This document shows, one piece after another, positions 5,869 through 17,429 of a stretch of 37,436 nt of DNA. Source of the DNA: Eubacteriales bacterium. GTDB lineage: Bacteria; Bacillota; Clostridia; Oscillospirales; CAG-272. The position numbers and the translations under genes were made by a program. The notes beneath the pieces are model-generated. The model had not been told where the DNA came from. It searched no databases and saw only the letters and a program-made list of their open reading frames with translations. Each line of letters opens with the position of its first letter. Position 1 is the stretch's first letter. The stretch is taken from positions 1 through 37,436 of the forward strand of contig JAZQRT010000095.1 in the NCBI GenBank assembly GCA_045629725.1, read 5' to 3'.

Positions 5869-7692
5869 TTGGTAAGAGAAAATTTAAGAAACATTGCAAT
5901 AATTGCTCACGTAGACCACGGAAAGACCACCCTTGTTGACCAGATGCTCAAGCAGGGCGGAGTATACCGCGAAAATCAGGCAACCTCCGAAAGAGTAATG
6001 GACTCGGGGGATATAGAGAAGGAAAGAGGAATTACAATACTCGCAAAAAATACTGCGGTATATTATAAGGATTATAAAATAAATATAGTAGATACTCCCG
6101 GACACGCTGACTTTGGCGGCGAGGTTGAGCGTATACTCAAGATGGTAAACGGAGTAATACTTCTTGTTGACGCGGCAGAGGGACCCATGCCTCAGACGAG
6201 ATTCGTTCTTCAGAAGGCACTTGAGCTTAACCACAAGGTCATCGTTGTTGTAAATAAGATAGATAAGCCCGATGCAAGACTTGAGGAGGTTGAGGAGGAG
6301 GTTCTTGAGCTTCTTATGGACCTTGATGCAACTGACGAACAGCTTGATTCACCAATGATATTCTGTTCGGGCAGAGCGGGAACGGCATCCTATTCAGCAG
6401 ACGAGGAGGGAAAGGATCTTGCACCTCTTTTTGATACCATCGTTGATTATATGCCCGCTCCCGAGGGTGATCCCGATGCAACACTGCAGTTGCTCGTATC
6501 CTCCATTGACTATAATGATTACGTTGGAAGGATCGGTATCGGACGTGTGGAGAACGGTACGGTAAAGATCGGACAGGACGTTGGAATATGCAATTACCAT
6601 ACCCCCGATGAGCCTGTAAAGCGTACAAAGGTAGTGTCCCTTTTTGAATTCAACGGACTCACAAGAACACCTGTTGAGATAGCATATCCCGGAGATATCG
6701 TTTGCTTCTCGGGTGCTGAAAGCATTACCATCGGTGATACACTCACTTCATTTCAGGATCCTCAGCCGCTCCCCTTTGTAAAGATCAGTGAGCCCACCCT
6801 TGAAATGACTTTTGCGGTAAACGATTCACCCTTTGCAGGTAAGGAGGGTAAATTCGTAACCTCACGTCAGCTTAGAAAAAGACTTTACGACGAGCTTTTA
6901 AAGGACGTTTCATTGAGAGTAAATGACGGAGATACAACTGACAGCTTCAAGGTATGCGGACGAGGCGAAATGCACCTTTCCATTCTTGTTGAAACAATGC
7001 GCCGTGAGGGATATGAGCTTTCCGTATCCGCGCCGCAGGTTATTATGAAGCGTATTGACGGAGTTCTTTGTGAGCCTATGGAGCGACTCTTCATTGACGT
7101 ATCAAACGACTATCTCGGCTCTGTAATGGAAAAGCTCGGAGCAAGAAAAGCGGAGCTTGTCACAATGGATCCCCACGGAAGCCGTGTAAAGCTTGAATAT
7201 ATTATCCCCTCAAGATGCCTTTTCGGATACCGTTCACATTTTCCCACCGACACACACGGAGAGGGAATTATGAACACCCTGTTTGATGGATACGCACCCT
7301 ATAAGGGAGATATCCCCACAAGATTCACAGGCTCTCTTATTGCATCTGAAACAGGTGAAACAACAAGCTACGGTCTTTATAACTCACAGGAGAGAGGCGA
7401 TCTCTTTATCGGACAGGGTATTGACGTATACGAGGGTATGATCGTCGGAGAGAACCCCAAGATGGGAGATATCGCGGTAAACGTATGTAAGAAAAAGCAC
7501 CTCACAGCCATCCGTTCAACGGGTGCGGACGAAGCGCTCAGACTTACAACCCCCAGATCAATGTCACTTGAAGAAGCCATTGAGTTTATAGCCCCCGACG
7601 AGCTTATTGAGGTAACGCCCAAGAATATCCGCCTGAGAAAGAGAATACTTGACAATTCTTTAAGACTCAAGGAACAGTTCAAGCGCAAATAA
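5869..7692 (+). CDS. typA: Translational GTPase TypA/BipA
   Basis: [31 protein letters not shown] and the BipA C-terminus ([11 protein letters not shown]); TTG start after AAGGAG. Confidence 0.98.
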
Positions 7693-7738
7693 GTACATTT
7701 TAAAAAAATAAATATATAAAATCTTAGGAGGGATTTTT

Positions 7739-8608
7739 ATGAAGAAAGAAAAAATAACGACCTATCTTTATGACCTGTTCTATCTTGTTATAGGTTCATT
7801 CCTGTTTGCAATTTCAGTCAATATGTTCCTTGTACAGGCAGAAAACGGAGGAGTTATCCTCGGAGGAGCTACAGGTATTTCAATGATCATCAGCCATTTT
7901 GTTGATGTTCTTCCGATCGGTACACTCATTATTCTCATAAACATTCCTCTGTTTATCGTTTCTTTTATTATGCTTGGTAAGGGCTTTATTTTCAGAACTG
8001 CAGTGGGAATGTTAATGTCCTCGATATTCACCAACATATTTACATTCTTCCCCGTAACGGTAACAGACCCCCTTCTTTGTGCCATCTTTGGCGGCGCAAC
8101 AATGGGAGCGTCCCTTGGACTTATCTATATGAGAGGATATACCACGGGCGGCGGAGATATGCTGGTTATGATTCTGAAAAAGAAAGCGCCCCGTCTTTCA
8201 ACGGGAGCAGCTACCCTTATCGTTGATGCAACCATCGTTACAACAGCCGCAATACTGTTCAAGGATCCCATGGTTATTTTCTATTCTGTGGTGGTAATCT
8301 TCGTTGAATCCAAGGTTATGGACTTTGTGCTTGTGGGCGCAAACAATGCCAAGAGCGTGTATGTCATTTCCGATCACTGCGAGGAAATTGCCGAGGGTAT
8401 TGCTAAGCGCGTTGAGAGAGGTATAACCATCATTGATTGTAAGGGCTGGTATACAGGCAAGGAAAAGAAGATGATCATGTGTGTTATAAGACCCGCCGAG
8501 GTATATGACCTGCGCCATGTGGTTATGGAATCAGACCCCAATGCCTTCATCATATTCTGCGAAGCCTCAAAGGTTGTAGGTAAGGGATTTATTGAAGGAA
8601 AAGAGTAA
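7739..8608 (+). CDS. YitT family membrane protein (DUF2179 C-terminus)
   Basis: GGATGI, GYTTGGGD, multiple TM helices, RGIT..GWYTG, DPNAFI..V.GKGF. Confidence 0.92.
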   Translation: MKKEKITTYLYDLFYLVIGSFLFAISVNMFLVQAENGGVILGGATGISMIISHFVDVLPIGTLIILINIPLFIVSFIMLGKGFIFRTAVGMLMSSIFTNIFTFFPVTVTDPLLCAIFGGATMGASLGLIYMRGYTTGGGDMLVMILKKKAPRLSTGAATLIVDATIVTTAAILFKDPMVIFYSVVVIFVESKVMDFVLVGANNAKSVYVISDHCEEIAEGIAKRVERGITIIDCKGWYTGKEKKMIMCVIRPAEVYDLRHVVMESDPNAFIIFCEASKVVGKGFIEGKE

Positions 8609-8626
8609 AATTTAATTACAGATATT

Positions 8627-8656
8627 AAAATGCTCCCGTAAAAAGGAGCATTTTTG
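8627..8656 (+). terminator. Intrinsic terminator of typA-yitT
   Basis: AAAATGCTCC/GGAGCATTTT stem followed by a T tract. Confidence 0.8.
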
Positions 8657-8672
8657 TTTTAATCTGAAAACT

Positions 8673-8701
8673 CCCCAAGCCTTGAAAAACAAGACTTGGG
8701 G
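8673..8701 (-). terminator. Probable terminator of the island operon
   Basis: CCCCAAG-CTTG...CAAG-CTTGGGG hairpin just past the stop at 8725. Confidence 0.6.
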
Positions 8702-8724
8702 TTATTTTTATGAGGTTATAGGTT

Positions 8725-9897
8725 TTAGATATTATCTATCTTTCTTCTGCGGGGGTATATTACCAGCGCGCCGAGGGTGAGGGAAACGAGCGCCACGGGT
8801 ATGAGGTACAAAGCTTCACCGGTTGAGGGGTTCTTAAGATATTTTTCTCGTTGAGCTTTAAGGTAGGCAATATCCTCCTCTCCGAATTTTGCTATAACTC
8901 TCGGGTCGTTGAGAAAAATTTCAAATTTCGGAGATAGCAACTCATAAGAAAGACCTAAGTGGAAAGTACTGCTATAGAAATAATAAGTGGGGAAATTAAA
9001 TCCCAGTCCATTTCTTATAACATCAGGGTTCGCAAGCTGATATTCTCTTTCGGCTTTCAGATATGCAAGTTTTTCTTCTCCCAATATTTCTGCCACTTCC
9101 GGATTATTAAGGAAGTACTCTACCCACACAGGTTTTAAATCATGTTTTGCGAGTTCTTCTACAGTCATACATTCATGACTATAATTACTATCTGTGTTAG
9201 CAAGTTCCCCGGCAGAAACAATAAATCCATTTTCTAAGCACAGATAACGATCGAAATTTTTATAGGAGTACCTTTGACCTACATAAAGTGTGTTGGAGGC
9301 TCTGTCATCTTCCAAATACAGTATATCAATCAGGAAATCCGGAAGAGCGTACTTACAGAACAAACCGTTTTCACGTCTTGCATAGCCTATGTCACTTTCA
9401 CTTAACATAGGAAACAGTGACAAAATCGAATCCGGTTCTTCTTGCATTTTTTTGTTGGCTGCTATCAATTCTTCCTTCGATATGTCAAAATATTTAATAA
9501 ATTCTCGCAACCAAAAAAAGCTATATTTATATTTATGTCTAAACGTTTCTCTTGCTTCTTCCAATTCGTCACATTTAATATAAAAACCATATCCATGAAA
9601 TGCCTGAGCCAATTTATCGTAGTTATCAATGCTGTCGTTCACTACACAGACAAACACCCTTTCGTATGTCCACTCTTTTGCAATGTCAGTATAAAAAAGA
9701 ACCGTTAAATCTGAAACAAAATCGTCACCAAATATTCCTCCGTCAGGCTGTTCTTCGATATACTCCCTTTTTTTATCCATAAGGTCAGCATATTGGTCAT
9801 AAGTTAATGTGTCTTCGGCATTTGCCGTAAATAATCCAACTGTTGATAACAACATTAAGCTCGTCAAAAATAGGGCTAATATTTTTTTTCTTTTCAT
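8725..9897 (-). CDS. Secreted, probably sortase-anchored hypothetical protein (NPSTG signal) with internal repeat; candidate partner or immunity protein
   Basis: Signal peptide ending ANA; C-terminal NPSTG, hydrophobic helix and RRRK tail; GAGGAGG RBS; starts 21 nt after the M23 gene stop. Confidence 0.8.
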   Translation of the reverse strand: MKRKKILALFLTSLMLLSTVGLFTANAEDTLTYDQYADLMDKKREYIEEQPDGGIFGDDFVSDLTVLFYTDIAKEWTYERVFVCVVNDSIDNYDKLAQAFHGYGFYIKCDELEEARETFRHKYKYSFFWLREFIKYFDISKEELIAANKKMQEEPDSILSLFPMLSESDIGYARRENGLFCKYALPDFLIDILYLEDDRASNTLYVGQRYSYKNFDRYLCLENGFIVSAGELANTDSNYSHECMTVEELAKHDLKPVWVEYFLNNPEVAEILGEEKLAYLKAEREYQLANPDVIRNGLGFNFPTYYFYSSTFHLGLSYELLSPKFEIFLNDPRVIAKFGEEDIAYLKAQREKYLKNPSTGEALYLIPVALVSLTLGALVIYPRRRKIDNI

Positions 9898-9918
9898 TGT
9901 GTGTTACCTCCTCAAAAA

Positions 9919-12900
9919 TTATAAATTTTCTTGATAGCCTATAGGAATAAAGAACAATAGAGGATTAAGTGGGAAGTCGTTCCATTTAGTTGCATTTGCC
10001 CGTCCAATTTCGGTTTCTTTTAATAGAAAAATTCCATAATGCAGATGTTGGTCATAGTCTCCGCCGGTATCCCCCGATGTTCCCAACCATTGTCCGGATG
10101 TTACCGTTTCACAATCATCAATGTCTGTGTTGGTTTCACTCCACAAATCCATATTTACATCAGTCATATGCATATATACTATGCAAATAAAGTATTCAGA
10201 ATTCTCTGATAATTGTAATCCTGTATTAATTACAATTACATTTCCTGCATTAAGATAGCCATCATATGAATCTTCATCATCGCCTGTAGCTGCAGCATAT
10301 ATAACTTTTCCTCCTATCGGACTATACAAATCAATTGGTTCATCTGTAGTATATAAATCTACACCTCTATGAACATCTGTTTTTTTTGCACCGCTTTTTA
10401 ATTTATAGGTTCTTGGCCCAAAATCACTTGTAAGAATTAATTCCTCGCCTGCTGCAAAAGGTCTGGAAAATCCAAATTCACTGCATTTTTCTTCAATTTC
10501 TGTATATAAGCAAGTATATATGTTAATATTGGAGTTAAAAACGTTAGTATCAAAATTATCAGGATTAAGTGCCTTATACTCATAATCAGATAAAGTCCAA
10601 GTTTGCATGGTAATTACATCTGTTGAATTTGGTTCAGGAGTGGTAGGATATAGTGGATCTAATCTGACTGCAATACCCTCTCCTCTATCGCTCAAATAAA
10701 TAGGAGAGCTTGATGCATGATACTTTATATGGAATTTTCCATCACTTCGAAGAATAAAATCAAACAACATACTGTTTAAATCATCAGTATTAATGCTACC
10801 ATCTTGCTTTTTGTAGATATCCATAACCACAGTATCGTTACTTTTACGTGCTGCTGCTCTGTGTTCTCCGTTAGAACTTGATATTGGCATGATTCTATAT
10901 GAATCAGTATTTTCGTCTAATACCAATCTAAACCCATACATATCTCCGTAAACTTCCGATTCAACTTCAAACAATCGAGATGAATTCAATGTGCTTGGGT
11001 CTTTTTTGTATTGCCATAATGCTTCCAAACTTGCCTCACGTGTATCTTTTCCTGTAGAAAGTAGCATTGCCGTATCATATCCCGATCTGTTTCTTAACAC
11101 CAAATTAGAATTTTTTACACTCGATAATGTCGCCACCTCAGGAACATAGTAGTTCATCATTTTCCATTGACGTTGTGCAGATGTTGACTGTGACCCCGTT
11201 GTGTCAAGACCATATGTGAAGTTGCCGCTATTATCAGTTTTTGCATACAGATAACGATTTTGTGCAACGTTCTTTATGAAAAATCCATCTGTTGTTTTTG
11301 TAACAGTCCAAAGCTGTGACGTATCAGATGATGAAGAAGTACGAGTTGCCAATGACACTGTTCCGTTTGAATTGGCACTTAAACACATATTGGAGTTTCC
11401 ACCCGGCACAATTCGGTACATTTGGTTTCCTGCCAAAACAAATTTCCAAGGTTCTTCTTTGATTATATACTTTGACATATTCAGAACTCCTGCAGACGAT
11501 ACAACCATAAAACCATCCGCAGATGCATTAGCAATAGACGTATATGCGTTTTCAGTCTTTTTGATTTTCCACTTGTATTGATTATTGTTTTCGGAATTAT
11601 CGATGGATATTTTGCCGGTATAGGTGCCGTTTGTGGTATCAATATACAGTTTATTACCATATTGTTCATTGATTATATAACAAGTATCACCTTCGACTGT
11701 AACGTACCAAAGTGCTGATCTTACGGTAGTGTTTGTAACAAGAGAAACAGAACCATCTTGTGATGCACTCAGGCACACTCCGTTATAAAGCACAGGTGCG
11801 ATACGATAGGTTCCCGTACCTATGGGAATGAATTTCCACAAACTTTCTTCCGTTATAAACACTGCTGTTCCAAGGGTTGTGTTGGTCTCAGATGTCAAAT
11901 AACGCTCTGTTTCAGGGTTATAAAGTGTTGTCTGCAGGTTGTTGAGTCCTTTAGGTACATAAGTTATAGAAGTTTTAGGGCGTTCCGAACTTAGTGTAGC
12001 CCTTGAACTGTGGAATACAACGTAATTTTGTCCGAACCTTACAGTTGTTTCCGAAGAATCTCTTATAATATAACCATCACCACAGTTTCTATATTCACTT
12101 GCAGGCAATTCAAAAGTGTAGGAAGTTTTTGCATTTGATGAATTATACTCTATTGCTCCAAGGAATCCCGAAAACGTATAATTGTTATTGTCAAAATCCG
12201 CTTCACCGCCGATTTTTGTAAGCTCAAGAAATCCGCTTCCATAAACCGATGATGCCGATAAGATAAGTCCTGTACCGACAACTGTATTTCCCTCGGGTAC
12301 TGTAGGGTATTCAGTGGGCTGGATATAAGTACGATAATAATATGCTGTTGATGATGTATTATACGCTTCCATACCTGCCATCAAATATCCGTTAGTAACA
12401 ACAGAAGTAGTACCGCCACCTGACATACTATATTTATCCGTTATATTACTGTTCATCACGCTGCCTGTTGCAGGGTCAAAGGTCACGGGATATACTCGCT
12501 CCGGGGAATTGCGCCATTCTCTGTCGGGAACGTAGCTTACAGTCCACACGCCGCCGCTTTCACTTGCGCTGACCGCAACTGCGGGGCACACGGAGCCTGC
12601 CGCGTCATACATATAGGGAGCGGCAACGTAAAATACTGCCCCACCGTCCTCACCGTAAAGAATGAGAGAGCCGTCCTCGGAAACGGACAGGGAAAGTCCC
12701 TCCATTGAATATGTCGTTTTGATGGACGAGTAATTTGCAGGGGATGCAAATATAATGTTTTCCTTCAAGATATTTCCGTCAACGATATACTCTGAGGAAA
12801 TACCTGCGCCGTAGGTGTTTTTGTATTCCAGCTTTGATGTCAGCTCGGGAACCTCAAAAACTGCGGCATCATTTTTAGATTTTCCTTTAAGCTCAACCTT

Positions 12901-13368
12901 TTTGTTATTCGTGACCTCAAGGCTTGCGGTCTTAAGTGAAGCTTCGCGTGTTGCAGAAGCACTGAGTGAGAGTACCTCAACTGTTGTATATGCTTGCAGT
13001 ATATTACCTGCTTTATCCTCCAAGGAATAGCTCGGTTGGTTTGCTTTGTTAGCGAATGATACCTTGAAATTGGGATTTCCTGCAGTTCTATACACGCCCT
13101 TTGAACTATTATATTCAAGAGTGTTGTCAATAGTCACGTATTTGCCGTTATTATCCAAATAATGAACGTCCTCGGGGAATGAGACCGCCATGACGCTTCC
13201 GTCCGAGCAAAGAAAATGCTTTTCGTTTGATCTTCTGAGTTCTGTCACTTCGCTTACAACAAGCGCGTCGGTCTTTTCCTGTGCCGTAACACCGAGAGTT
13301 GGGCAAAGGGGAAGAACAAATGACATTACAAGGATAAAGGATAAAATTTTAAACTTAGTCTTTTTCAT
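9919..13368 (-). CDS. Large secreted multidomain protein: Rhs/WapA-type N-terminal region, ricin-B-like beta-trefoils, C-terminal M23 metallopeptidase
   Basis: Signal peptide; KHFLCSDGS...VHY...IDNTL, LKENII, APYMYDA, ERVYPVTFDP; QxW-type repeats (ESLW, SALW, QYKW, SQLW, QRQW); M23 motifs TSDFGPR, HRGVD (10357-10371) and HLH (10039-10047). ATG 13368 lies 8 nt from AAGGAG. Confidence 0.85.
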   Translation of the reverse strand: MKKTKFKILSFILVMSFVLPLCPTLGVTAQEKTDALVVSEVTELRRSNEKHFLCSDGSVMAVSFPEDVHYLDNNGKYVTIDNTLEYNSSKGVYRTAGNPNFKVSFANKANQPSYSLEDKAGNILQAYTTVEVLSLSASATREASLKTASLEVTNNKKVELKGKSKNDAAVFEVPELTSKLEYKNTYGAGISSEYIVDGNILKENIIFASPANYSSIKTTYSMEGLSLSVSEDGSLILYGEDGGAVFYVAAPYMYDAAGSVCPAVAVSASESGGVWTVSYVPDREWRNSPERVYPVTFDPATGSVMNSNITDKYSMSGGGTTSVVTNGYLMAGMEAYNTSSTAYYYRTYIQPTEYPTVPEGNTVVGTGLILSASSVYGSGFLELTKIGGEADFDNNNYTFSGFLGAIEYNSSNAKTSYTFELPASEYRNCGDGYIIRDSSETTVRFGQNYVVFHSSRATLSSERPKTSITYVPKGLNNLQTTLYNPETERYLTSETNTTLGTAVFITEESLWKFIPIGTGTYRIAPVLYNGVCLSASQDGSVSLVTNTTVRSALWYVTVEGDTCYIINEQYGNKLYIDTTNGTYTGKISIDNSENNNQYKWKIKKTENAYTSIANASADGFMVVSSAGVLNMSKYIIKEEPWKFVLAGNQMYRIVPGGNSNMCLSANSNGTVSLATRTSSSSDTSQLWTVTKTTDGFFIKNVAQNRYLYAKTDNSGNFTYGLDTTGSQSTSAQRQWKMMNYYVPEVATLSSVKNSNLVLRNRSGYDTAMLLSTGKDTREASLEALWQYKKDPSTLNSSRLFEVESEVYGDMYGFRLVLDENTDSYRIMPISSSNGEHRAAARKSNDTVVMDIYKKQDGSINTDDLNSMLFDFILRSDGKFHIKYHASSSPIYLSDRGEGIAVRLDPLYPTTPEPNSTDVITMQTWTLSDYEYKALNPDNFDTNVFNSNINIYTCLYTEIEEKCSEFGFSRPFAAGEELILTSDFGPRTYKLKSGAKKTDVHRGVDLYTTDEPIDLYSPIGGKVIYAAATGDDEDSYDGYLNAGNVIVINTGLQLSENSEYFICIVYMHMTDVNMDLWSETNTDIDDCETVTSGQWLGTSGDTGGDYDQHLHYGIFLLKETEIGRANATKWNDFPLNPLLFFIPIGYQENL

Positions 13369-13494
13369 TTTCAAATCTCCTTTTTATTAATTTTCTGTCA
13401 ATACGGAGACTTCAAATGCTTGACGAACAAAAATGAAGCCTTGTGTGAATCATTGACGCACAACTCTCGGCACATTCACACAGGCGCGCCGAGG

Positions 13495-13521
13495 CTATGA
13501 AAAATTATTCTCGCTTTCCAT
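13495..13521 (-). other. Leader micro-ORF MESENNFS in the 5' UTR of the M23 gene
   Basis: AAGAGGTGA Shine-Dalgarno sequence followed by ATG, just downstream of the predicted promoter. Confidence 0.4.
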
Positions 13522-13553
13522 TTTTATCACCTCTTACTTTTATTTCCAATTAA

Positions 13554-13582
13554 AGTATAACAAAAACATATTCGTTTGTCAA
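13554..13582 (-). promoter_or_regulatory. SigmaA-type promoter for the M23 operon
   Basis: TTGACA-17 nt-TATACT with TG extension. Confidence 0.75.
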
Positions 13583-13623
13583 TACGTTTATTGTGCGTTT
13601 TGAATATTTTTTAACAACAAATA

Positions 13624-13652
13624 TTGACAGTATCACTTTAAAATGATATAAT
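13624..13652 (+). promoter_or_regulatory. Consensus sigmaA promoter of padR operon
   Basis: TTGACA-17 nt-TATAAT with TG extension; back-to-back with the M23 promoter. Confidence 0.85.
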
Positions 13653-13679
13653 ACAACTAATAAATATGGAGGAGCGGTT

Positions 13680-14054
13680 ATGAAACCTTTTGACGTGAGC
13701 GATATTGAAGAAAATTTAAAACGCGGAATGCTTGAAATGCTGATCTTGAAAGCTCTGTGTGAAGAAGATCTTTACGGATATGAGATGGCAGACATCATCA
13801 ACAGTAAAAGCGGCGGGAAGATCAACATCAAAGAGGGCTCTTTATACGGTCCCTTATATAGACTTATTGACAAAAACTGTATCTCTGAAAATAAGGTTTT
13901 GGTCGGAAAAAGAAGAACACGAATCTATTTTCACATTGAGGAGAGGGGCAGAGAATATCTGCAGATGTTAACCGAGGTTTATTTGAGAATGAACGAAGGG
14001 GTAATGCAGTTTATCAGCGAAAAGGAGACTACAAATGAACAAGATCAACAATAA
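13680..14054 (+). CDS. PadR family transcriptional regulator
   Basis: LKRGMLEMLILKAL, LYGYEM, EGSLYGPLYRL, RRTRIYFHIEERG. Confidence 0.93.
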   Translation: MKPFDVSDIEENLKRGMLEMLILKALCEEDLYGYEMADIINSKSGGKINIKEGSLYGPLYRLIDKNCISENKVLVGKRRTRIYFHIEERGREYLQMLTEVYLRMNEGVMQFISEKETTNEQDQQ

Positions 14055-14409
14055 AATTATAAAGTCCTATGTAAAAGAGGTTACAAAAGAGCTTAAATGC
14101 TCTAAAATGCTGACCTCGGTTTTCCGCAAAAGGTTTATGGATGAGATATACAGCTTTGCAGAAGGACAGGAAAACATTTCCTATGAATTCCTTTCTGAGC
14201 GTTTCGGTACTCCCAAAAAGGTTGCCGACAGTTTTCTTGAAAGAGCAGACTATGAAGAACTCCTTAAGCTTTCAAAGAAAAGAGAAGTTTTTTGGAGATG
14301 CGCTGCCATAATCGGCTTTGTAGCGCTTGTTATTGTAATTATATTCTTTGCAATATGTATGCATGAAGCAGCCGGAACGATAATTGTTACAGGTCCTATT
14401 ATTGAATAA
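14035..14409 (+). CDS. Small PadR-associated membrane protein (HAAS/DUF1700-like helical domain plus one TM helix)
   Basis: Y..EV.KEL...RFGTPKKVA motif then a TM helix; overlaps padR by 20 nt. Confidence 0.65.
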   Translation: MNKINNKIIKSYVKEVTKELKCSKMLTSVFRKRFMDEIYSFAEGQENISYEFLSERFGTPKKVADSFLERADYEELLKLSKKREVFWRCAAIIGFVALVIVIIFFAICMHEAAGTIIVTGPIIE

Positions 14410-14456
14410 AAATTCAATCAAATCTATAACAAACATACTTTTTTAAGGAGGCATTT

Positions 14457-14948
14457 ATGAAAAAATTTGTTTTATCCATTACACTTATCTTTTCACTGTT
14501 TTTGACATTTTCTGTGTCAACCGCAGCAGCAACACCCTTGACAACCACTTCTAAGACTGAGGACAGTGCTACTGTAATTCATTACGAAGACGGAAGCAAG
14601 CTTACAATATCTGCTCCGATAGTTGAAGATGTATACAGCAGAGCTACATACACAAAGTCAGCAAGTAAAGATGCAAGATTTGAAGATTCCGACGGCAATA
14701 TCGAGTGGGAACATACCTTACACGCAACGTTTTCATACACCTATGCTTCCTCTGCCGTTTGCACCGATACATATTATACTCAGACGATCTATGAAGGTAA
14801 TTGGACGTTTTCAAACGGTGCCGCAACAAAATCCGGCGCAACCGCAACAGGCGCAGGAAATTATGTAAAAAAGGTGCTCTTTGTGACCGTTAAAAATATT
14901 AAAATTGATATCTCTTTGACTTGTGATAAATACGGAAATATTACATAA
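14457..14948 (+). CDS. Secreted hypothetical protein (beta-rich, two Cys)
   Basis: Signal peptide ending TAAA, AAGGAGG RBS, C-terminal LTCDKYGNIT. Confidence 0.8.
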   Translation: MKKFVLSITLIFSLFLTFSVSTAAATPLTTTSKTEDSATVIHYEDGSKLTISAPIVEDVYSRATYTKSASKDARFEDSDGNIEWEHTLHATFSYTYASSAVCTDTYYTQTIYEGNWTFSNGAATKSGATATGAGNYVKKVLFVTVKNIKIDISLTCDKYGNIT

Positions 14949-14961
14949 TTAATTGAATAAC

Positions 14962-14997
14962 AAAAACGCTTACCTCATTTTAAAGGTAAGCGTTTTT
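14962..14997. terminator. Bidirectional terminator between island and leuS
   Basis: AAAAACGCTTACCT/AGGTAAGCGTTTTT perfect inverted repeat. Confidence 0.85.
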
Positions 14998-15026
14998 CTT
15001 ATGGAAAAAATCTTTTTATTAAAGAT

Positions 15027-17429
15027 TTATCTTACAACGATGTTAACGAGCTTGCCGGGGACAGCGATCTCCTTAACGGTGGTCTTGCCATCGATCCAAG
15101 GCTTGATCTTTTCGTCGGCACGAGCGGCGGCGATCATATCCTCCTTGGTAGCGTCCTTTGCGATCTTGATGGTACCGCGGAGCTTTCCGCAAACCTGAAC
15201 CGCAACCTCGATCACGGAGTCGATAGTCTTTGCTTCATCATACTCGGGCCATACGCTGAGGCTGAGGAGGTCCTTTTCGCCAAGGGACTCCCAAATTTCC
15301 TCTGTAAGGTGGGGTGCGAAGGGACAGAGAAGCTTGATGTAGGTCTTGCACTGCTCTGTGGTGATGGAGCCTGCCGCACCGATATCATTGATAAGTGTCA
15401 TGAGAGCGGCAATAGCGGTGTTGAACTTCATTTCCTCGATATCGGAGGATACCTTCTTGATGGTCTTGTGGAATGCGCTTTCAAGAGCCTCGCCGGACTT
15501 TGTATCGTCGATCATGGAAGGAAGCTCTGCAACTCTTTCAAGGAATCTCTTACAGCCTTTAACACTGCTGTCGGACCAAGGAGCGGCAGAGGAATAGTCA
15601 CCCATAAAGAGGATATATGTTCTGAGTGTGTCTGCGCCGTATTCGTTGATAACGTCATCGGGGTCAACAACGTTTCCGAGGGATTTACTCATCTTGGAAC
15701 CGTCAGCGCCAAGGATCATACCTTGTGCGGTTCTCTTTGCATAAGGCTCCTCGGTGGGAACTGAGCCGATATCGTAGAGGAACTTGTGCCAGAATCTTGA
15801 ATAGATAAGGTGACGGGTTACGTGCTCCATACCGCCGTTATACCAGACAACGGGCATCCAATACTTAAGCTTTTCGGGGACTGCAAGGCAGTCGGGATTG
15901 TGGGGGTCGATGTATCTGAGGAAGTACCATGATGAACCTGCCCACTGAGGCATTGTGTCTGTTTCGCGCTTAGCAGCAGCGCCGCACTTGGGACACGTGC
16001 AGTTTACGAAGCTTTCGATCTTTGCAAGGGGGCTTTCTCCGCCTTCGCCGGGCTCAAAGTTTTCAACCTCGGGAAGAACAAGGGGAAGCTCCTCATAAGG
16101 AACGCCAACGATTCCGCACTTGGGACAATGAACAAGCGGAATGGGCTCGCCCCAATATCTCTGACGGTTGAACGCCCAGTCCTTCATCTTGTACTGTACG
16201 CCTGCTTTACCGATACCCTTTTCTTCAACAAATTCAAGAACTCTCGCAATAGAGTCCTTCTTGTTTGTGAAGCCGTTGAGGAACTCGGAGTTAACCATCT
16301 CACCGTCACCTGTATAAGCGGCAACGGAGATATCTCCGCCCTTGATTACCTCGATGATATCTATACCGAATTTCTTTGCGAATTCGTAGTCACGCTCGTC
16401 GTGAGCGGGAACAGCCATGATCGCGCCTGTACCGTAGCCCATCATAACGTAGTCGGAAATGTAGATCGGGATCTCCTTGCCGTTTATGGGGTTGATTGCT
16501 GAAAGTCCTGCAAGGCGTACACCTGTCTTTTCCTTAACGAGCTGAGTACGTTCAAATTCTGTCTTCTTTGCACACTCAGCGCGGTATGCTATAACCTCGT
16601 CCATGTTGGAGATGCGCTCCTGATACTTGTCAATAAGGTTGTGCTCGGGTGCCATAACCATAAATGTAACGCCGAAAAGTGTGTCGGGACGAGTTGTGTA
16701 AATTTCAAGAGTTTCTTCTGTGTCCTTAAGAGTGAAGTTTACAAAAGCACCTGTGGACTTACCGATCCAGTTCTCCTGCTGCATTTTGATGTTGGGGAGA
16801 TAGTCAACGCCGTCAAGACCTGTGAGAAGTCTGTCTGCATATTCGGTAATACGGAGATACCATACGTCCTTGGACTTCTGAACAACGTCGCTGTGGCAGA
16901 TATCACACTTACCGCCCTGTGAGTCCTCGTTGGAAAGAACTACCTTACAGGAGGGGCAGTAGTTTACAAGTGTCTTATCTCTGAAAACAAGTCCGTGGTC
17001 AAACATCTTGCGGAATATCCACTGCGTCCACTTGTAGTAATTAACGTCTGTGGTATCAACTGTTCTTGTCCAGTCAAAGGAGAAACCAACCTTTTTGAGC
17101 TGACTTGTAAAGTGAGTGATGTTTGTGTCAGTTACCTGTCGGGGGTGAACCTTATGCTTGATCGCATAGTTTTCTGTGGGAAGACCGAATGCGTCAAATC
17201 CGATAGGGTAGAGAACGTTGTAGCCCTGCATACGTCTTTTTCTTGTGATAACCTCAAGACCTGAATATGCCTTGATGTGACCAACGTGCATACCTGCTCC
17301 GCTGGGGTAGGGGAATTCGATGAGTCCGAAGAACTTGGGCTTGTCGCAGTTATCCTTTGCAAGGAAAGCGCCTTCGTCTTCCCATCTTTTTTGCCACTTG
17401 GGCTCTATTGATTGAAAATCGTACTTCAT
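15027..17429 (-). CDS. leuS: Leucine--tRNA ligase
   Basis: FPYPSG, HVGH (HIGH motif), YTTRPDTL editing domain, RQRYWGEPIP, KMSKS. Confidence 0.98.
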   Translation of the reverse strand: MKYDFQSIEPKWQKRWEDEGAFLAKDNCDKPKFFGLIEFPYPSGAGMHVGHIKAYSGLEVITRKRRMQGYNVLYPIGFDAFGLPTENYAIKHKVHPRQVTDTNITHFTSQLKKVGFSFDWTRTVDTTDVNYYKWTQWIFRKMFDHGLVFRDKTLVNYCPSCKVVLSNEDSQGGKCDICHSDVVQKSKDVWYLRITEYADRLLTGLDGVDYLPNIKMQQENWIGKSTGAFVNFTLKDTEETLEIYTTRPDTLFGVTFMVMAPEHNLIDKYQERISNMDEVIAYRAECAKKTEFERTQLVKEKTGVRLAGLSAINPINGKEIPIYISDYVMMGYGTGAIMAVPAHDERDYEFAKKFGIDIIEVIKGGDISVAAYTGDGEMVNSEFLNGFTNKKDSIARVLEFVEEKGIGKAGVQYKMKDWAFNRQRYWGEPIPLVHCPKCGIVGVPYEELPLVLPEVENFEPGEGGESPLAKIESFVNCTCPKCGAAAKRETDTMPQWAGSSWYFLRYIDPHNPDCLAVPEKLKYWMPVVWYNGGMEHVTRHLIYSRFWHKFLYDIGSVPTEEPYAKRTAQGMILGADGSKMSKSLGNVVDPDDVINEYGADTLRTYILFMGDYSSAAPWSDSSVKGCKRFLERVAELPSMIDDTKSGEALESAFHKTIKKVSSDIEEMKFNTAIAALMTLINDIGAAGSITTEQCKTYIKLLCPFAPHLTEEIWESLGEKDLLSLSVWPEYDEAKTIDSVIEVAVQVCGKLRGTIKIAKDATKEDMIAAARADEKIKPWIDGKTTVKEIAVPGKLVNIVVR

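What the first reader, a model, noticed from the sequence alone, without database searches (positions are those of the whole stretch)
8748..12720. GC-rich blocks bracket an AT-rich payload, suggesting a swappable cassette
Hand counts: 12481-12720 (ending at ERVYPVTFDP) is about 57% GC and the sorting-signal DNA at ~8750-8830 about 60% GC. M23 DNA (10141-10380) is about 32% and the partner body (9481-9600) about 25%. The shifts fall at domain boundaries inside intact ORFs. Inference: the lectin/M23/partner-body segment may be exchanged by recombination between two conserved anchors shared with paralogous loci, so toxin and partner would move together.
Basis: partly seen in the sequence, partly recalled or inferred. 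Interest (0 to 1): 0.7.

Follow-up and report, generated by a model that had tools for sequence, protein, structure and literature searches.

The report
Mosaic hydrolase operon between shared ends
A gut bacterium's two-gene unit for a secreted cell-wall-cutting enzyme and a surface-anchored partner has real jumps in base composition and sits between two short DNA elements repeated almost letter for letter at other loci, but the GC-rich block inside the enzyme gene is not one of them and no swap was seen.

Summary
The 1151-aa M23/ricin-lectin gene has the strongest within-gene GC3 split of 123 long genes in this genome: 0.47 before codon 308 and 0.27 after.

The 3' GC-rich block is part of a 174-bp module (8667-8840) made of sorting signal, stop codon and terminator. 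Five copies in this genome are 89-99% identical, while the gene bodies share about 30% of residues. The sister species has its own homogenised version, which points to gene conversion.

The 5' GC-rich block (12481-12720) is single-copy. It is the conserved end of an N-terminal head domain, and about two thirds of its GC excess comes from amino-acid make-up.

The real second shared element is an AT-rich promoter-leader upstream of the operon (13436-13633). It occurs at six places at 94-97% identity.

The hydrolase and partner are adjacent in three genomes. The same chromosomal slot holds different cargo in the sister species. Metagenome contigs from four studies show the same layout, with contig breaks at the GC3 switch.

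Exchange between the shared ends is plausible but was not observed.

The parts
8667..8840 (-). 3' shared module. It comprises the sorting motif NPSTGE, a hydrophobic stretch, an RRRK tail, the stop codon, a 20-30 nt spacer and a terminator hairpin.
   Evidence: There are five copies in G000 at 91-98% identity (C95, C113, C60, C107, and the start of C107). Over 24 codons, identity is 0.89-0.99 within the genome, with third positions at 0.83-0.96. Against the sister species it is 0.51-0.60, with third positions at 0.33-0.50. GC3 is 0.62 in the module and 0.32 in the body.
8673..8701 (-). Terminator hairpin of the module: a 12-bp stem followed by a run of U.
   Evidence: Folding gives -21.8 kcal/mol, z -4.74, with 0 of 200 shuffles as good. 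The hairpin alone also occurs at C29, C31, C2 (two sites) and C60:6925.
8725..9897 (-). Partner gene, 390 aa. It has a signal peptide, a mostly helical body of no known family, and a C-terminal sorting signal.
   Evidence: No Pfam or NCBIfam family matched. The AlphaFold2 model has pLDDT 71 and pTM 0.64. Five family genes are present in G000 and four in G001.
9919..13374 (-). Secreted multidomain hydrolase gene, 1151 aa. It has a signal peptide, a head domain, a middle region, ricin-type lectin repeats and a C-terminal M23 metallopeptidase.
   Evidence: RicinB_lectin_2 scores E 9e-11. Peptidase_M23 scores E 6e-7 at 30.0 bits, against a cut-off of 28.7. H1000, D1004, H1067, H1108 and H1110 are invariant in 6 homologues. 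A 21-nt gap separates it from the partner gene.
12451..13374 (-). Head-coding part (codons 1-308). GC3 is 0.47, typical for the genome.
   Evidence: This is the most conserved part against the sister species, at 60-72% of residues compared with 25-50% downstream. Similar heads at about 30% identity sit on RHS, lipase-like and C39-like proteins.
12481..12720 (-). It is the last 80 residues of the head and is single-copy.
   Evidence: GC expected from the residues alone is 52.2%. The orthologous block in G001 is 45.9% GC in a 37.2% gene, with GC3 0.38.
9922..12450 (-). Payload (codons 309-1151). GC3 is 0.27, below the first percentile of this genome's genes.
10027..10374 (-). M23 peptidase core (aa 1001-1116). 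GC3 falls as low as 0.06-0.2.
13436..13633 (-). 5' shared element: a promoter plus leader upstream of the operon. The C45 copy extends the match to 13394-13639.
   Evidence: It occurs at six places in G000 at 94-97% identity (C95, C45, C99, C60, C170), plus 27 bp at the start of C113. In C99, C60 and C113 it lies upstream of partner-family genes. A related promoter and leader occur at 5 aligned loci in G001, including upstream of its M23 gene.
13554..13582 (-). Sigma-70-like promoter inside the 5' element (TTGACA, 17 nt spacer, TATACT; 11 of 12 matches).
13495..13521 (-). Eight-codon mini-ORF in the leader (MESENNFS). It follows a Shine-Dalgarno-like sequence and is followed by two conserved stems.
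   Evidence: Read. The stop is TAG or TAA in different copies.
13680..14054 (+). PadR-family regulator gene, transcribed divergently from the operon.
   Evidence: E 1.8e-14. A 12 of 12 promoter match lies at 13624-13652.

Best explanation
The interval is one operon of a ruminant-gut Oscillospiraceae-like bacterium. It encodes a secreted peptidoglycan hydrolase, followed 21 nt later by a surface-anchored partner from a small multigene family. The hydrolase has a head domain, ricin-type lectins and an M23 metallopeptidase.

The composition is a mosaic with three causes.
1. The payload and the partner body use very AT-rich codons. So do most secreted accessory genes of this genome, and so do the homologues in the sister species.
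2. The head has codon use typical for the genome. Its local GC peak comes mainly from Gly/Ala/Pro/Val-rich sequence.
3. The 3' GC-rich block belongs to a 174-bp module of sorting signal, stop and terminator. Gene conversion keeps this module nearly identical among five dispersed paralogues. GC-biased conversion probably raises its GC3.

The operon as a whole lies between that module and a second multi-copy element, an AT-rich promoter-leader. These two shared ends give about 175-200 bp of near-identity on each side. Homologous recombination could use them to move the whole cargo between loci or strains, hydrolase and partner together.

Shown: the composition, the copy numbers, homogenisation within each genome, the adjacency of the pair, and different cargo in the same slot in the sister species. 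Inferred: conversion as the homogenising process, GC-biased conversion as the cause of the module's high GC3, and any cargo exchange.
For: Composition:
- GC and GC3 figures, and the top-ranked change-point among 123 genes.
- The bodies of all 5 G000 family genes have GC3 0.29-0.33. The modules of the 4 complete G000 genes have GC3 0.54-0.62.
- The three homogenised G001 modules have GC3 0.54-0.57. The one G001 family gene whose module is not homogenised (C59) has module GC3 0.35.
- Many of the 25 lowest-GC3 ORFs of 1022 begin with a signal-peptide-like sequence, by my reading of their N-termini.

Module:
- Five copies at 91-98% identity, including non-coding spacer and terminator.
- No DNA match in 40 relatives.
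- Identity within a genome is 0.89-0.99 and between genomes 0.51-0.60. Third positions are 0.83-0.96 and 0.33-0.50.
- The body of G000 C113 is closest to G001 C59 (51%), yet its module is 99% identical to that of C95 over those 24 codons. The paralogues therefore predate the split of the two species, while the modules group by genome.

5' element:
- Six places at 94-97% identity.

Pair and slot:
- M23 gene and partner are adjacent in G000, in G001 (overlapping ATGA) and in G010.
- Beside yitT, behind a related promoter-leader, G000 has the M23 gene plus partner. G001 has an unrelated 312-aa secreted protein there, and its own M23 pair lies between other genes.

Other:
- One sortase gene is present.
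- Lassalle et al. 2015 (PMC4450053, abstract read) report higher GC in recombining bacterial genes, independent of codon selection.
Against: - No locus was seen in which the two shared ends carry swapped cargo.
- The other G000 loci that have both shared ends hold only partner-family genes.
- The 5' element is AT-rich, so conversion does not always raise GC.
- Strong selection on a promoter-leader could by itself keep it alike.
- The GC-biased-conversion reading rests on 7 homogenised modules against 1 that is not.
- The assembly is a 93%-complete metagenome bin in 171 contigs. Copies of both elements sit at contig ends, so copy numbers are lower bounds.
- The junctions in C95 at these repeats were not confirmed by an independent contig.
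- Why the head of G000 has GC3 0.47 while the G001 head has 0.35 is not explained.
Confidence: 0.6

Rival explanations
1. The GC-rich block 12481-12720 and the sorting-signal block are the two recombination anchors shared with paralogous loci. The lectin, M23 and partner-body segment is exchanged between them.
For: - Block B is multi-copy.
- The GC3 switch at codon 308 lies 30 nt beyond block A.
- Heads of this kind carry other payloads in relatives, at about 30% identity.
Against: - Block A and the whole head are single-copy in G000 by blastn and tblastn.
- No paralogous locus has both blocks.
- The five closest homologues, at 51-60% head identity, all have the ricin-lectin and/or M23 type of payload.
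- Identity of a metagenome strain to the window is 94.4% left and 94.8% right of the junction.
- A junction-spanning search among shorter proteins found no near-identical head with another payload; 3 hits, the best 71% identical over 83 aa.
Confidence: 0.1
2. The hydrolase gene is a chimera. A recombination event at about 12430-12460 joined a resident head to a payload and partner with a different history, for example an allele from a more AT-rich lineage. The GC3 split is the scar of that event. This overlaps with the best explanation rather than excluding it.
For: - This is the strongest GC3 change-point in the genome, and it falls at a domain boundary.
- In Logan contigs of 4 runs from 4 studies, contigs end at 12455/12428 (X2), 12460/12431 (X9) and 12414 (X3).
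- In X2 and X9, two contigs cover 12307-12322 but one covers the head.
- The head contig has the higher per-contig depth: 13.7 against 5.7 in X2, and 14.5 against 4.6 in X9. This is a weak hint, because contig depth is coarse.
- Core proteins of G001 are 85-95% identical to G000, but the hydrolase is only 46% and the partner 34%.
Against: - The payload of the G001 homologue is equally AT-rich (GC3 0.29) although its protein is only 25-50% identical. Low GC3 is therefore old and class-wide, not a fresh import.
- Identity to the window does not change across the junction in X2.
- X1 and X3 show no depth difference.
Confidence: 0.3
3. No recombination is involved. Both GC-rich blocks and both shared elements are alike only because of function: protein constraint, membrane-segment codons, and promoter or terminator function.
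For: - About two thirds of block A's GC excess comes from its residues.
- The orthologous block is a local GC peak in G001 too.
- Promoters, leaders and terminators are under selection.
Against: - Third codon positions of the module are 83-96% identical within a genome and 33-50% between species.
- The non-coding spacer between the stop and the terminator is also conserved.
- G001 keeps a different module sequence equally uniform in 3 of its 4 genes.
- A working family gene (G001 C59) has a divergent, low-GC3 module.
Confidence: 0.08

Closest known systems
Rhs / polymorphic-toxin loci (conserved core, variable C-terminal tip, downstream small gene)
   Same: - A conserved N-terminal part has one composition, and a more AT-rich C-terminal payload follows, with a small gene directly downstream.
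[quoted passage not shown]
- Heads like this one also sit on RHS-repeat proteins, at 26-32% identity.
   Different: - This protein has no RHS repeats.
- The head is typical for the genome rather than GC-rich.
- The closest homologues share the same type of payload rather than showing alternative tips.
- The downstream gene encodes a 390-aa secreted, anchored protein from a dispersed family, not a small cytoplasmic immunity protein.
- The shared DNA lies outside the toxin-like gene, in the promoter-leader and in the partner's 3' end.
M23 bacteriolysins such as lysostaphin and zoocin A with linked self-protection genes (recalled, not checked in a paper here)
   Same: A secreted M23 metallopeptidase with intact HxxxD and HxH residues, joined to a targeting domain and linked to a neighbouring gene.
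   Different: - Targeting is by ricin-type lectins rather than an SH3b-type domain.
- There is a 300-aa head of unknown role.
- The neighbour has no family match, so nothing links it to a cell-wall-modifying enzyme.
- Killing activity is untested.
Surface-protein multigene families with conserved ends and variable middles, kept alike by gene conversion (for example streptococcal M and M-like proteins; recalled)
   Same: - Signal peptide and sorting-signal ends are conserved at DNA level around divergent bodies.
- Paralogues within a genome are more alike at the ends than orthologues are.
   Different: - The homogenised tract here is only about 174 bp and includes the terminator.
- A separate promoter-leader is shared with non-family genes.
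- One family member is coupled to a hydrolase gene.
GC-biased gene conversion in bacteria (Lassalle et al. 2015, PMC4450053, abstract read)
   Same: Tracts with evidence of recombination have higher GC3 than the rest. The modules are at 0.54-0.62 and the bodies at 0.24-0.34.
   Different: Here the contrast appears at the scale of about 110 coding bases within single genes. It rests on a handful of copies, and substitution direction was not polarised.

Membership tests
Peptidase family M23 (PF01551) | Profile match above the curated cut-off | tested here: met
   30.0 bits against a cut-off of 28.7, E 6.3e-7, aa 1001-1116. The margin is narrow.
Peptidase family M23 (PF01551) | Zinc-binding and catalytic HxxxD and HxH motifs (motif definition recalled) | tested here: met
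   HRGVD and HLH are present. H1000, D1004, H1067, H1108 and H1110 are invariant in 6 homologues.
Peptidase family M23 (PF01551) | Peptidoglycan-cleaving activity | not testable with these tools
   This needs an enzyme assay.
Sortase-anchored surface protein | N-terminal signal peptide, plus a C-terminal xPxTG motif, a hydrophobic stretch and a basic tail | tested here: met
   Read from the sequence. The end reads NPSTGE/PPSTGE/KPQTGE, then about 20 hydrophobic residues, then RRRK. The motif is not the canonical LPXTG.
Sortase-anchored surface protein | A sortase is encoded in the genome | tested here: met
   one PF04203 match at G000:C37, 44.4 bits against a cut-off of 26.6.
Sortase-anchored surface protein | Cleavage at the motif and linkage to the cell wall | not testable with these tools
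   This needs biochemistry. A plain C-terminal membrane anchor is not excluded.
Multigene family under concerted evolution (gene conversion) | In the tract, paralogues within a genome are more alike than orthologues between species, while the rest of the gene shows the opposite | tested here: met
   Module identity is 0.89-0.99 within G000 and 0.93-0.97 among 3 G001 genes, against 0.51-0.60 between genomes. Bodies are 0.25-0.51 identical, and the best pair is cross-species (C113 with G001 C59).
Multigene family under concerted evolution (gene conversion) | Silent and non-coding positions are homogenised too | tested here: met
   Third positions are 0.83-0.96 identical within a genome. The spacer and terminator are conserved.
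Polymorphic toxin / Rhs-type cassette system | Close relatives share the conserved N-terminal part but carry alternative C-terminal toxin domains | tested here: not met
   The five closest homologues (51-60% in the head) carry the same ricin-lectin and/or M23 families. Other payloads appear only at 26-34% head identity. One search found no alternative payload on a near-identical head.
Polymorphic toxin / Rhs-type cassette system | The cognate immunity protein is encoded directly downstream and binds the toxin | tested here: inconclusive
   A downstream gene is conserved in 3 of 3 genomes with the M23 part. Its function is unknown.
   Block B has 5 copies and block A has 1. A different 5' element (13436-13633) is multi-copy.
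   With the promoter-leader and the 3' module as the ends, C60, C113 and C99/C107 hold other cargo. The yitT slot holds other cargo in G001. No exchange event was seen, and 4 of 4 metagenome runs show the same layout.
Invertible or recombinase-driven switch | Inverted repeats flank the segment | tested here: not met
   Within 8400-14100 there are only short, weak inverted repeats (17-27 nt, 74-88% complementary), and none lies at the boundaries.

The most novel reading that the evidence does not exclude
A set of secreted-protein loci in this gut lineage shares near-identical ends: a promoter-leader on one side and a sorting-signal-plus-terminator on the other. Conversion keeps these ends alike, and they act as built-in homology arms. 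Whole cargoes could then be moved between loci and strains by ordinary homologous recombination, with no dedicated recombinase. One such cargo is a cell-wall hydrolase with its anchored partner, which may serve for self-protection. GC-biased conversion would leave a visible GC3 mark on the coding arm.
Probability: 0.2. Interest if true: 0.7.

Novelty: new variant of a known kind. Interest (0 to 1): 0.5.

Why it matters
This locus gives a concrete, testable example of very short conversion tracts shaping both sequence identity and base composition inside bacterial genes. The tracts are about 175-200 bp.

It shows the risk of reading a GC contrast as a cassette boundary. One GC-rich block was a true shared module. 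The other was mostly amino-acid make-up in a conserved domain. The real second shared element is AT-rich.

It also points to three uncharacterised items in uncultured ruminant-gut Clostridia:
- a secreted M23/lectin hydrolase with a head domain also found on RHS-type proteins
- an anchored partner family of no known fold
- a promoter-leader shared by at least six loci

If the shared ends do mediate cargo exchange, this would be a simple route for spreading weapons used between bacteria, together with their partner genes.

Tried and rejected
- Complex prediction of the M23 domain (aa 925-1149) with the partner ectodomain (aa 28-356) gave no verdict.
- Fold of the partner: Foldseek against PDB gave no match at E<=0.001. 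VIA-align wide gave a best Z of 4.4 over about 55-residue helical pieces. The ESM Atlas gave no usable hit. The partner's function stays open.
- The search for related loci with alignment A1 returned an error because no stretch was conserved enough. A narrower alignment A2 found only 2 loci in genome contigs.
- The head as query found 1 distant locus (28% identity) in metagenome contigs. No strain-level comparison came from these collections.
- A search among shorter proteins across the junction gave 3 hits and no near-identical head with another payload.
- Rfam on 8500-13800 gave only two sub-threshold chance-level hits.
- Covariation test of the two leader stems: 97.7% of cells pair, but the stems are almost invariant, and 46 of 500 shuffles did as well. 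This is inconclusive.
- I first read the G010 hydrolase (547-aa frame) as lacking a head. I dropped that reading because the contig ends inside the gene.
- The synteny check of the C60 locus in G001 and G002 was uninformative, because the flanking genes lie on different contigs.
- Stretches of the window without contig cover were not used as evidence.
- I considered whether the 3' module is a mobile insertion. I rejected this because diverged versions of the same sorting signal sit at the same position in G001 and G010 family genes.
Full report
**Observation**

The window is contig C95 of a metagenome-assembled genome of 1.67 Mb in 171 contigs, 93% complete and 43.2% GC. Names attached to its nearest database relatives point to Oscillospiraceae/Ruminococcaceae. 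Runs that hold parts of the locus are animal-gut metagenomes, labelled goat, bovine or simply gut.

A 240-bp window of at least 57% GC occurs in 0.14% of 13,628 windows across the genome.

The interval holds two intact ORFs on the minus strand. One is a 1151-aa protein (9919-13374). The other is a 390-aa protein 21 nt downstream (8725-9897). They sit in a low-GC island between yitT (7739-8608) and leuS (15027-17429). The island also holds a PadR regulator gene and two small ORFs.

**What the genes are**

The large protein has these parts:
- a signal peptide
- a head of about 300 residues, with only a weak sub-threshold DUF7948 match
- a middle region
- ricin-type lectin repeats (E 9e-11)
- a C-terminal M23 metallopeptidase, scoring 30.0 bits against a cut-off of 28.7

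The M23 His and Asp residues are invariant in six homologues.

The small protein has a signal peptide and a mostly helical body with no Pfam or NCBIfam match. It ends in NPSTGE, about 20 hydrophobic residues and RRRK, which is a sorting-signal layout. One sortase gene is present in the genome.

**Codon-level dissection**

Sliding GC1, GC2 and GC3 show that GC3 falls from 0.4-0.6 to 0.1-0.35 near codon 300. A change-point scan of all 123 ORFs of at least 600 aa puts this gene first. The statistic is z 6.3, with the split at codon 308, about window 12450. GC3 is 0.47 before the split and 0.27 after. The genome gene mean is 0.455, and the first percentile is 0.307.

One search compared observed GC with the GC expected from the residues under genome-average codon choice:

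| Segment | Observed GC % | Expected GC % |
|---|---|---|
| Whole head | 45.8 | 45.7 |
| Block A (12481-12720) | 56.7 | 52.2 |
| Payload | 36.9 | 44.4 |
| M23 DNA (10141-10380) | 31.7 | 43.8 |
| Partner body | 35.8 | 42.2 |
| Sorting-signal DNA | 59.3 | 50.1 |

The head is ordinary. Block A is GC-rich mainly because of its residues. The payload and partner body are strongly AT-shifted by codon choice, and the sorting-signal DNA is GC-shifted by codon choice.

Low GC3 is not special to this locus. Many of the 25 lowest-GC3 ORFs of 1022 start with a signal-peptide-like sequence, by my reading of their N-termini. All five partner-family bodies have GC3 0.29-0.33. The homologous hydrolase of the sister species G001 has GC3 0.35 in the head and 0.29 in the rest.

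**The 3' block is a real shared module**

BLAST of 8725-8835 against the genome finds copies at 92-96% identity on C113, C60 and C107, plus a fragment at the start of C107. Block A (12470-12720) finds only itself.

Alignment shows that the conserved tract runs from the sorting motif through the stop codon. It continues through a non-coding spacer and a 12-bp-stem terminator (z -4.74), covering 8667-8840. Upstream of the tract the genes cannot be aligned as DNA, and their proteins share about 30% of residues.

The module is not found as DNA in 40 relatives. Three of the four family genes in G001 share a different module, again nearly identical to one another and again including the terminator in two of them.

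Over 24 codons anchored at the TGE motif:
- identity within G000 is 0.89-0.99
- identity among the three G001 genes is 0.93-0.97
- identity between the genomes is 0.51-0.60
- third-position identity is 0.83-0.96 within a genome and 0.33-0.50 between genomes

The body of G000 C113 is closest to G001 C59 (51%), so the paralogues are older than the two species, yet the modules group by genome. This is the signature of concerted evolution by gene conversion.

Homogenised modules have GC3 0.54-0.62. The one module that is not homogenised (G001 C59) has 0.35, like the bodies. This fits GC-biased conversion as described for bacteria (PMC4450053, abstract). It rests on very few copies.

**The 5' block is not a shared anchor**

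The head has no second copy in this assembly by DNA or by translated search. Among 5.8 billion proteins, the nearest heads are 59-60% identical. The five nearest, at 51-60%, carry ricin-lectin and/or M23 families. Heads at 26-34% identity sit on RHS-repeat, lipase-like and C39-like proteins. G002 and G010 each hold 6-7 head-bearing genes of 900-2300 residues.

Payload shuffling behind this head is therefore real over long evolutionary distances. It is not a current exchange between paralogous loci here.

Against the G001 homologue, the head is simply the best-conserved part. It shares 60-72% of residues and 62-77% of bases, with no near-identical block.

**An unexpected second shared element**

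The 306 bp upstream of the hydrolase gene contain a tract repeated at 94-97% identity on C45, C99, C60 and C170. The tract spans 13436-13633, or 13394-13639 against C45. A further 27 bp lie at the start of C113.

On C99, C60 and C113 the element lies upstream of partner-family genes. On C45 it lies upstream of another secreted protein.

The element contains:
- a strong promoter (13554-13582, 11 of 12 matches)
- a Shine-Dalgarno-like sequence and an eight-codon mini-ORF (13495-13521)
- two conserved stems
- in the C95 and C45 copies, a hairpin that pairs with the ribosome-binding site of the main gene

No Rfam family matches it. Five aligned G001 loci have a related promoter and leader, including the ones upstream of its M23 gene and of the gene beside its yitT. 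The stems are kept but hardly vary, so covariation is uninformative.

The whole operon, hydrolase plus partner, thus lies between two elements that are multi-copy at high identity. Four loci carry both ends: C95, C60, C113 and C99 with C107.

**Do the hydrolase and partner travel together?**

In every genome where the M23 part was found, a partner-family gene follows directly. These are G000, G001 and G010. In G001 the two genes overlap by ATGA.

Two more hydrolase homologues and two partner homologues come from contigs of matching lengths, 191,999 and 42,352 bases. This suggests two more linked pairs, but I did not verify it.

The partner family is narrow. Strong matches occur in 4 of 251 family genomes. 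One of those, G121, showed no hydrolase match. Most family members are solo or in tandem.

G001 core proteins are 85-95% identical to G000, but its hydrolase is 46% and its partner 34% identical. Its pair lies between a membrane-protein gene (my reading: YhhN-like) and a gene whose product reads like GyrB/ParE (my reading of its N-terminus), not beside yitT.

Beside the G001 yitT, in the same orientation and behind the related promoter-leader, lies an unrelated 312-aa secreted protein. It has no homologue in G000. The same slot and the same kind of promoter hold different cargo. This fits cargo turnover at these loci but does not show how it happened.

**Strain-level look**

Logan contigs of four runs from four studies were laid on 6000-16500 at 85% or more likeness. 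All four show pieces of the same layout. For X2 the identities to the window are:

| Window range | What it covers | Differences / length | Identity % |
|---|---|---|---|
| 6282-7210 | core flank | 7 / 929 | 99.2 |
| 7282-8292 | core flank | 22 / 1011 | 97.8 |
| 8740-9838 | partner | 66 / 1105 | 94 |
| 9950-10653 | M23 part | 10 / 704 | 98.6 |
| 11028-12455 | middle and lectins | 80 / 1428 | 94.4 |
| 12428-13465 | head | 54 / 1032 | 94.8 |
| 13583-14308 | PadR region | 5 / 726 | 99.3 |

Contigs end at the GC3 switch in three runs: 12455/12428 in X2, 12460/12431 in X9 and 12414 in X3. In X2 and X9, two contigs cover 12307-12322 while one contig of higher depth covers the head. Depths are 13.7 against 5.7 in X2 and 14.5 against 4.6 in X9. 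X1 and X3 show no such difference.

I read this as two payload alleles joined to one head in those samples, that is, a diversity boundary at the domain junction. Contig depth is coarse and the pieces are short, so this is a hint only.

Summed depth is also raised over the two shared elements, as expected for multi-copy DNA. For the bin 8457-8807 it is 15-24 in three runs, and for 13371-13721 it is 10-23 in three runs.

**Mechanism and odds**

I put about 0.6 on the composite reading given under the best explanation. A recombination scar at codon 308 (0.3) is compatible with it. A purely functional explanation without recombination gets under 0.1.

The partner's role is inferred only. It is secreted and anchored where a secreted wall hydrolase would act, and it is tightly linked to the hydrolase. 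Self-protection or docking is therefore reasonable, and I put about one third on self-protection. No tool result supports binding.

**Comparison with known systems**

- The layout works like an Rhs or polymorphic-toxin locus: a conserved front, an AT-rich variable back and a linked downstream gene (passage in PMC7259588). It fails the membership test that close relatives carry alternative tips.
- It resembles M23 bacteriolysins with linked protection genes (recalled). It has a different targeting domain and an unrelated neighbour.
- The homogenised ends resemble surface-protein families with conserved ends (recalled).

**Caveats**

- The bin is incomplete, and copies of both elements lie at contig ends, so copy numbers are minima. 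A second head copy could be unassembled.
- The C95 joins at both repeats were not bridged by an independent contig.
- Supplements of the cited papers were not consulted.

Noticed in passing
window 13394-13639 (-); also G000 C45:7216-7460, C99:1102-1299, C60:8931-9133, C170:77-281, C113:1-27: A promoter-leader element is repeated at 94-97% identity at six places, upstream of secreted-protein genes. It holds a mini-ORF (MESENNFS, with a TAG or TAA stop in different copies) and two conserved stems. No Rfam family matches it. A related leader occurs at 5 aligned loci in the sister species. It may be an unrecognised cis-regulatory leader that defines a set of co-regulated genes.
   Followed up: partly
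L060-L063 upstream parts; G001 L064-L067: The other copies carry two direct 'TTATCCC' boxes just upstream of the promoter; in G001 the boxes are on the other strand. The C95 copy lacks them and instead abuts the divergent PadR gene. The hydrolase operon may be regulated differently from the other loci.
   Followed up: no
G000 C29:6633-6673, C31:3491-3528, C2:8215-8254, C2:9210-9253, C60:6925-6969: The terminator hairpin of the 3' module occurs on its own at five further places, at 78-92% identity.
   Followed up: no
G000 C99:1-971 and C107:1-1118: The C99 family gene runs off its contig inside the sorting motif, and C107 starts with the rest of a module. The two contigs are probably adjacent, which would give two tandem family genes with identical signal peptides. 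The assembly breaks at the repeat.
   Followed up: partly
window 8842-9080 (partner aa 273-352): The partner carries an internal duplication. The motif '...LAYLKAEREYQLANP' directly precedes the sorting signal in paralogues. Here it occurs once, is followed by about 60 extra residues, and then occurs again as '...IAYLKAQREKYLKNPSTGE'.
   Followed up: no
window 13350-14891 and 14409-14795 (table 5c): One X2 contig joins 13350 to 14891, skipping the leader, PadR and two small ORFs, with 4 other letters between. One X1 contig joins 14409 to 14795 with 32 other letters between. The island next to leuS appears to vary among strains. The length on each side of the join was not shown, so these may be artefacts.
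   Followed up: no
window 8609-15026 compared with G001 C130:1-1498 and G002 C4:59318 onward: The space between yitT and leuS is a variable slot in this genus. G001 has a 312-aa secreted protein next to yitT, and G002 has a 550-aa lipoprotein-like gene next to leuS. Homology to the window stops exactly at the yitT and leuS stop codons.
   Followed up: partly
G000 C45:5981-6976: An ORF that reads like a tyrosine recombinase of the XerC/D type lies about 240 bp upstream of the C45 copy of the promoter-leader. This is my reading of the sequence; no family search was run.
   Followed up: no
G000 C99:1552-5088 (L004): An 1178-aa protein with List_Bact_rpt repeats and a weak transglutaminase-like match lies upstream of the C99 family gene, on the same strand and about 580 bp away.
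   Followed up: no
genome-wide: The lowest-GC3 ORFs of this genome are, by my reading of their N-termini, mostly signal-peptide or lipoprotein genes. Secreted accessory proteins may form a distinct compositional class here.
   Followed up: partly
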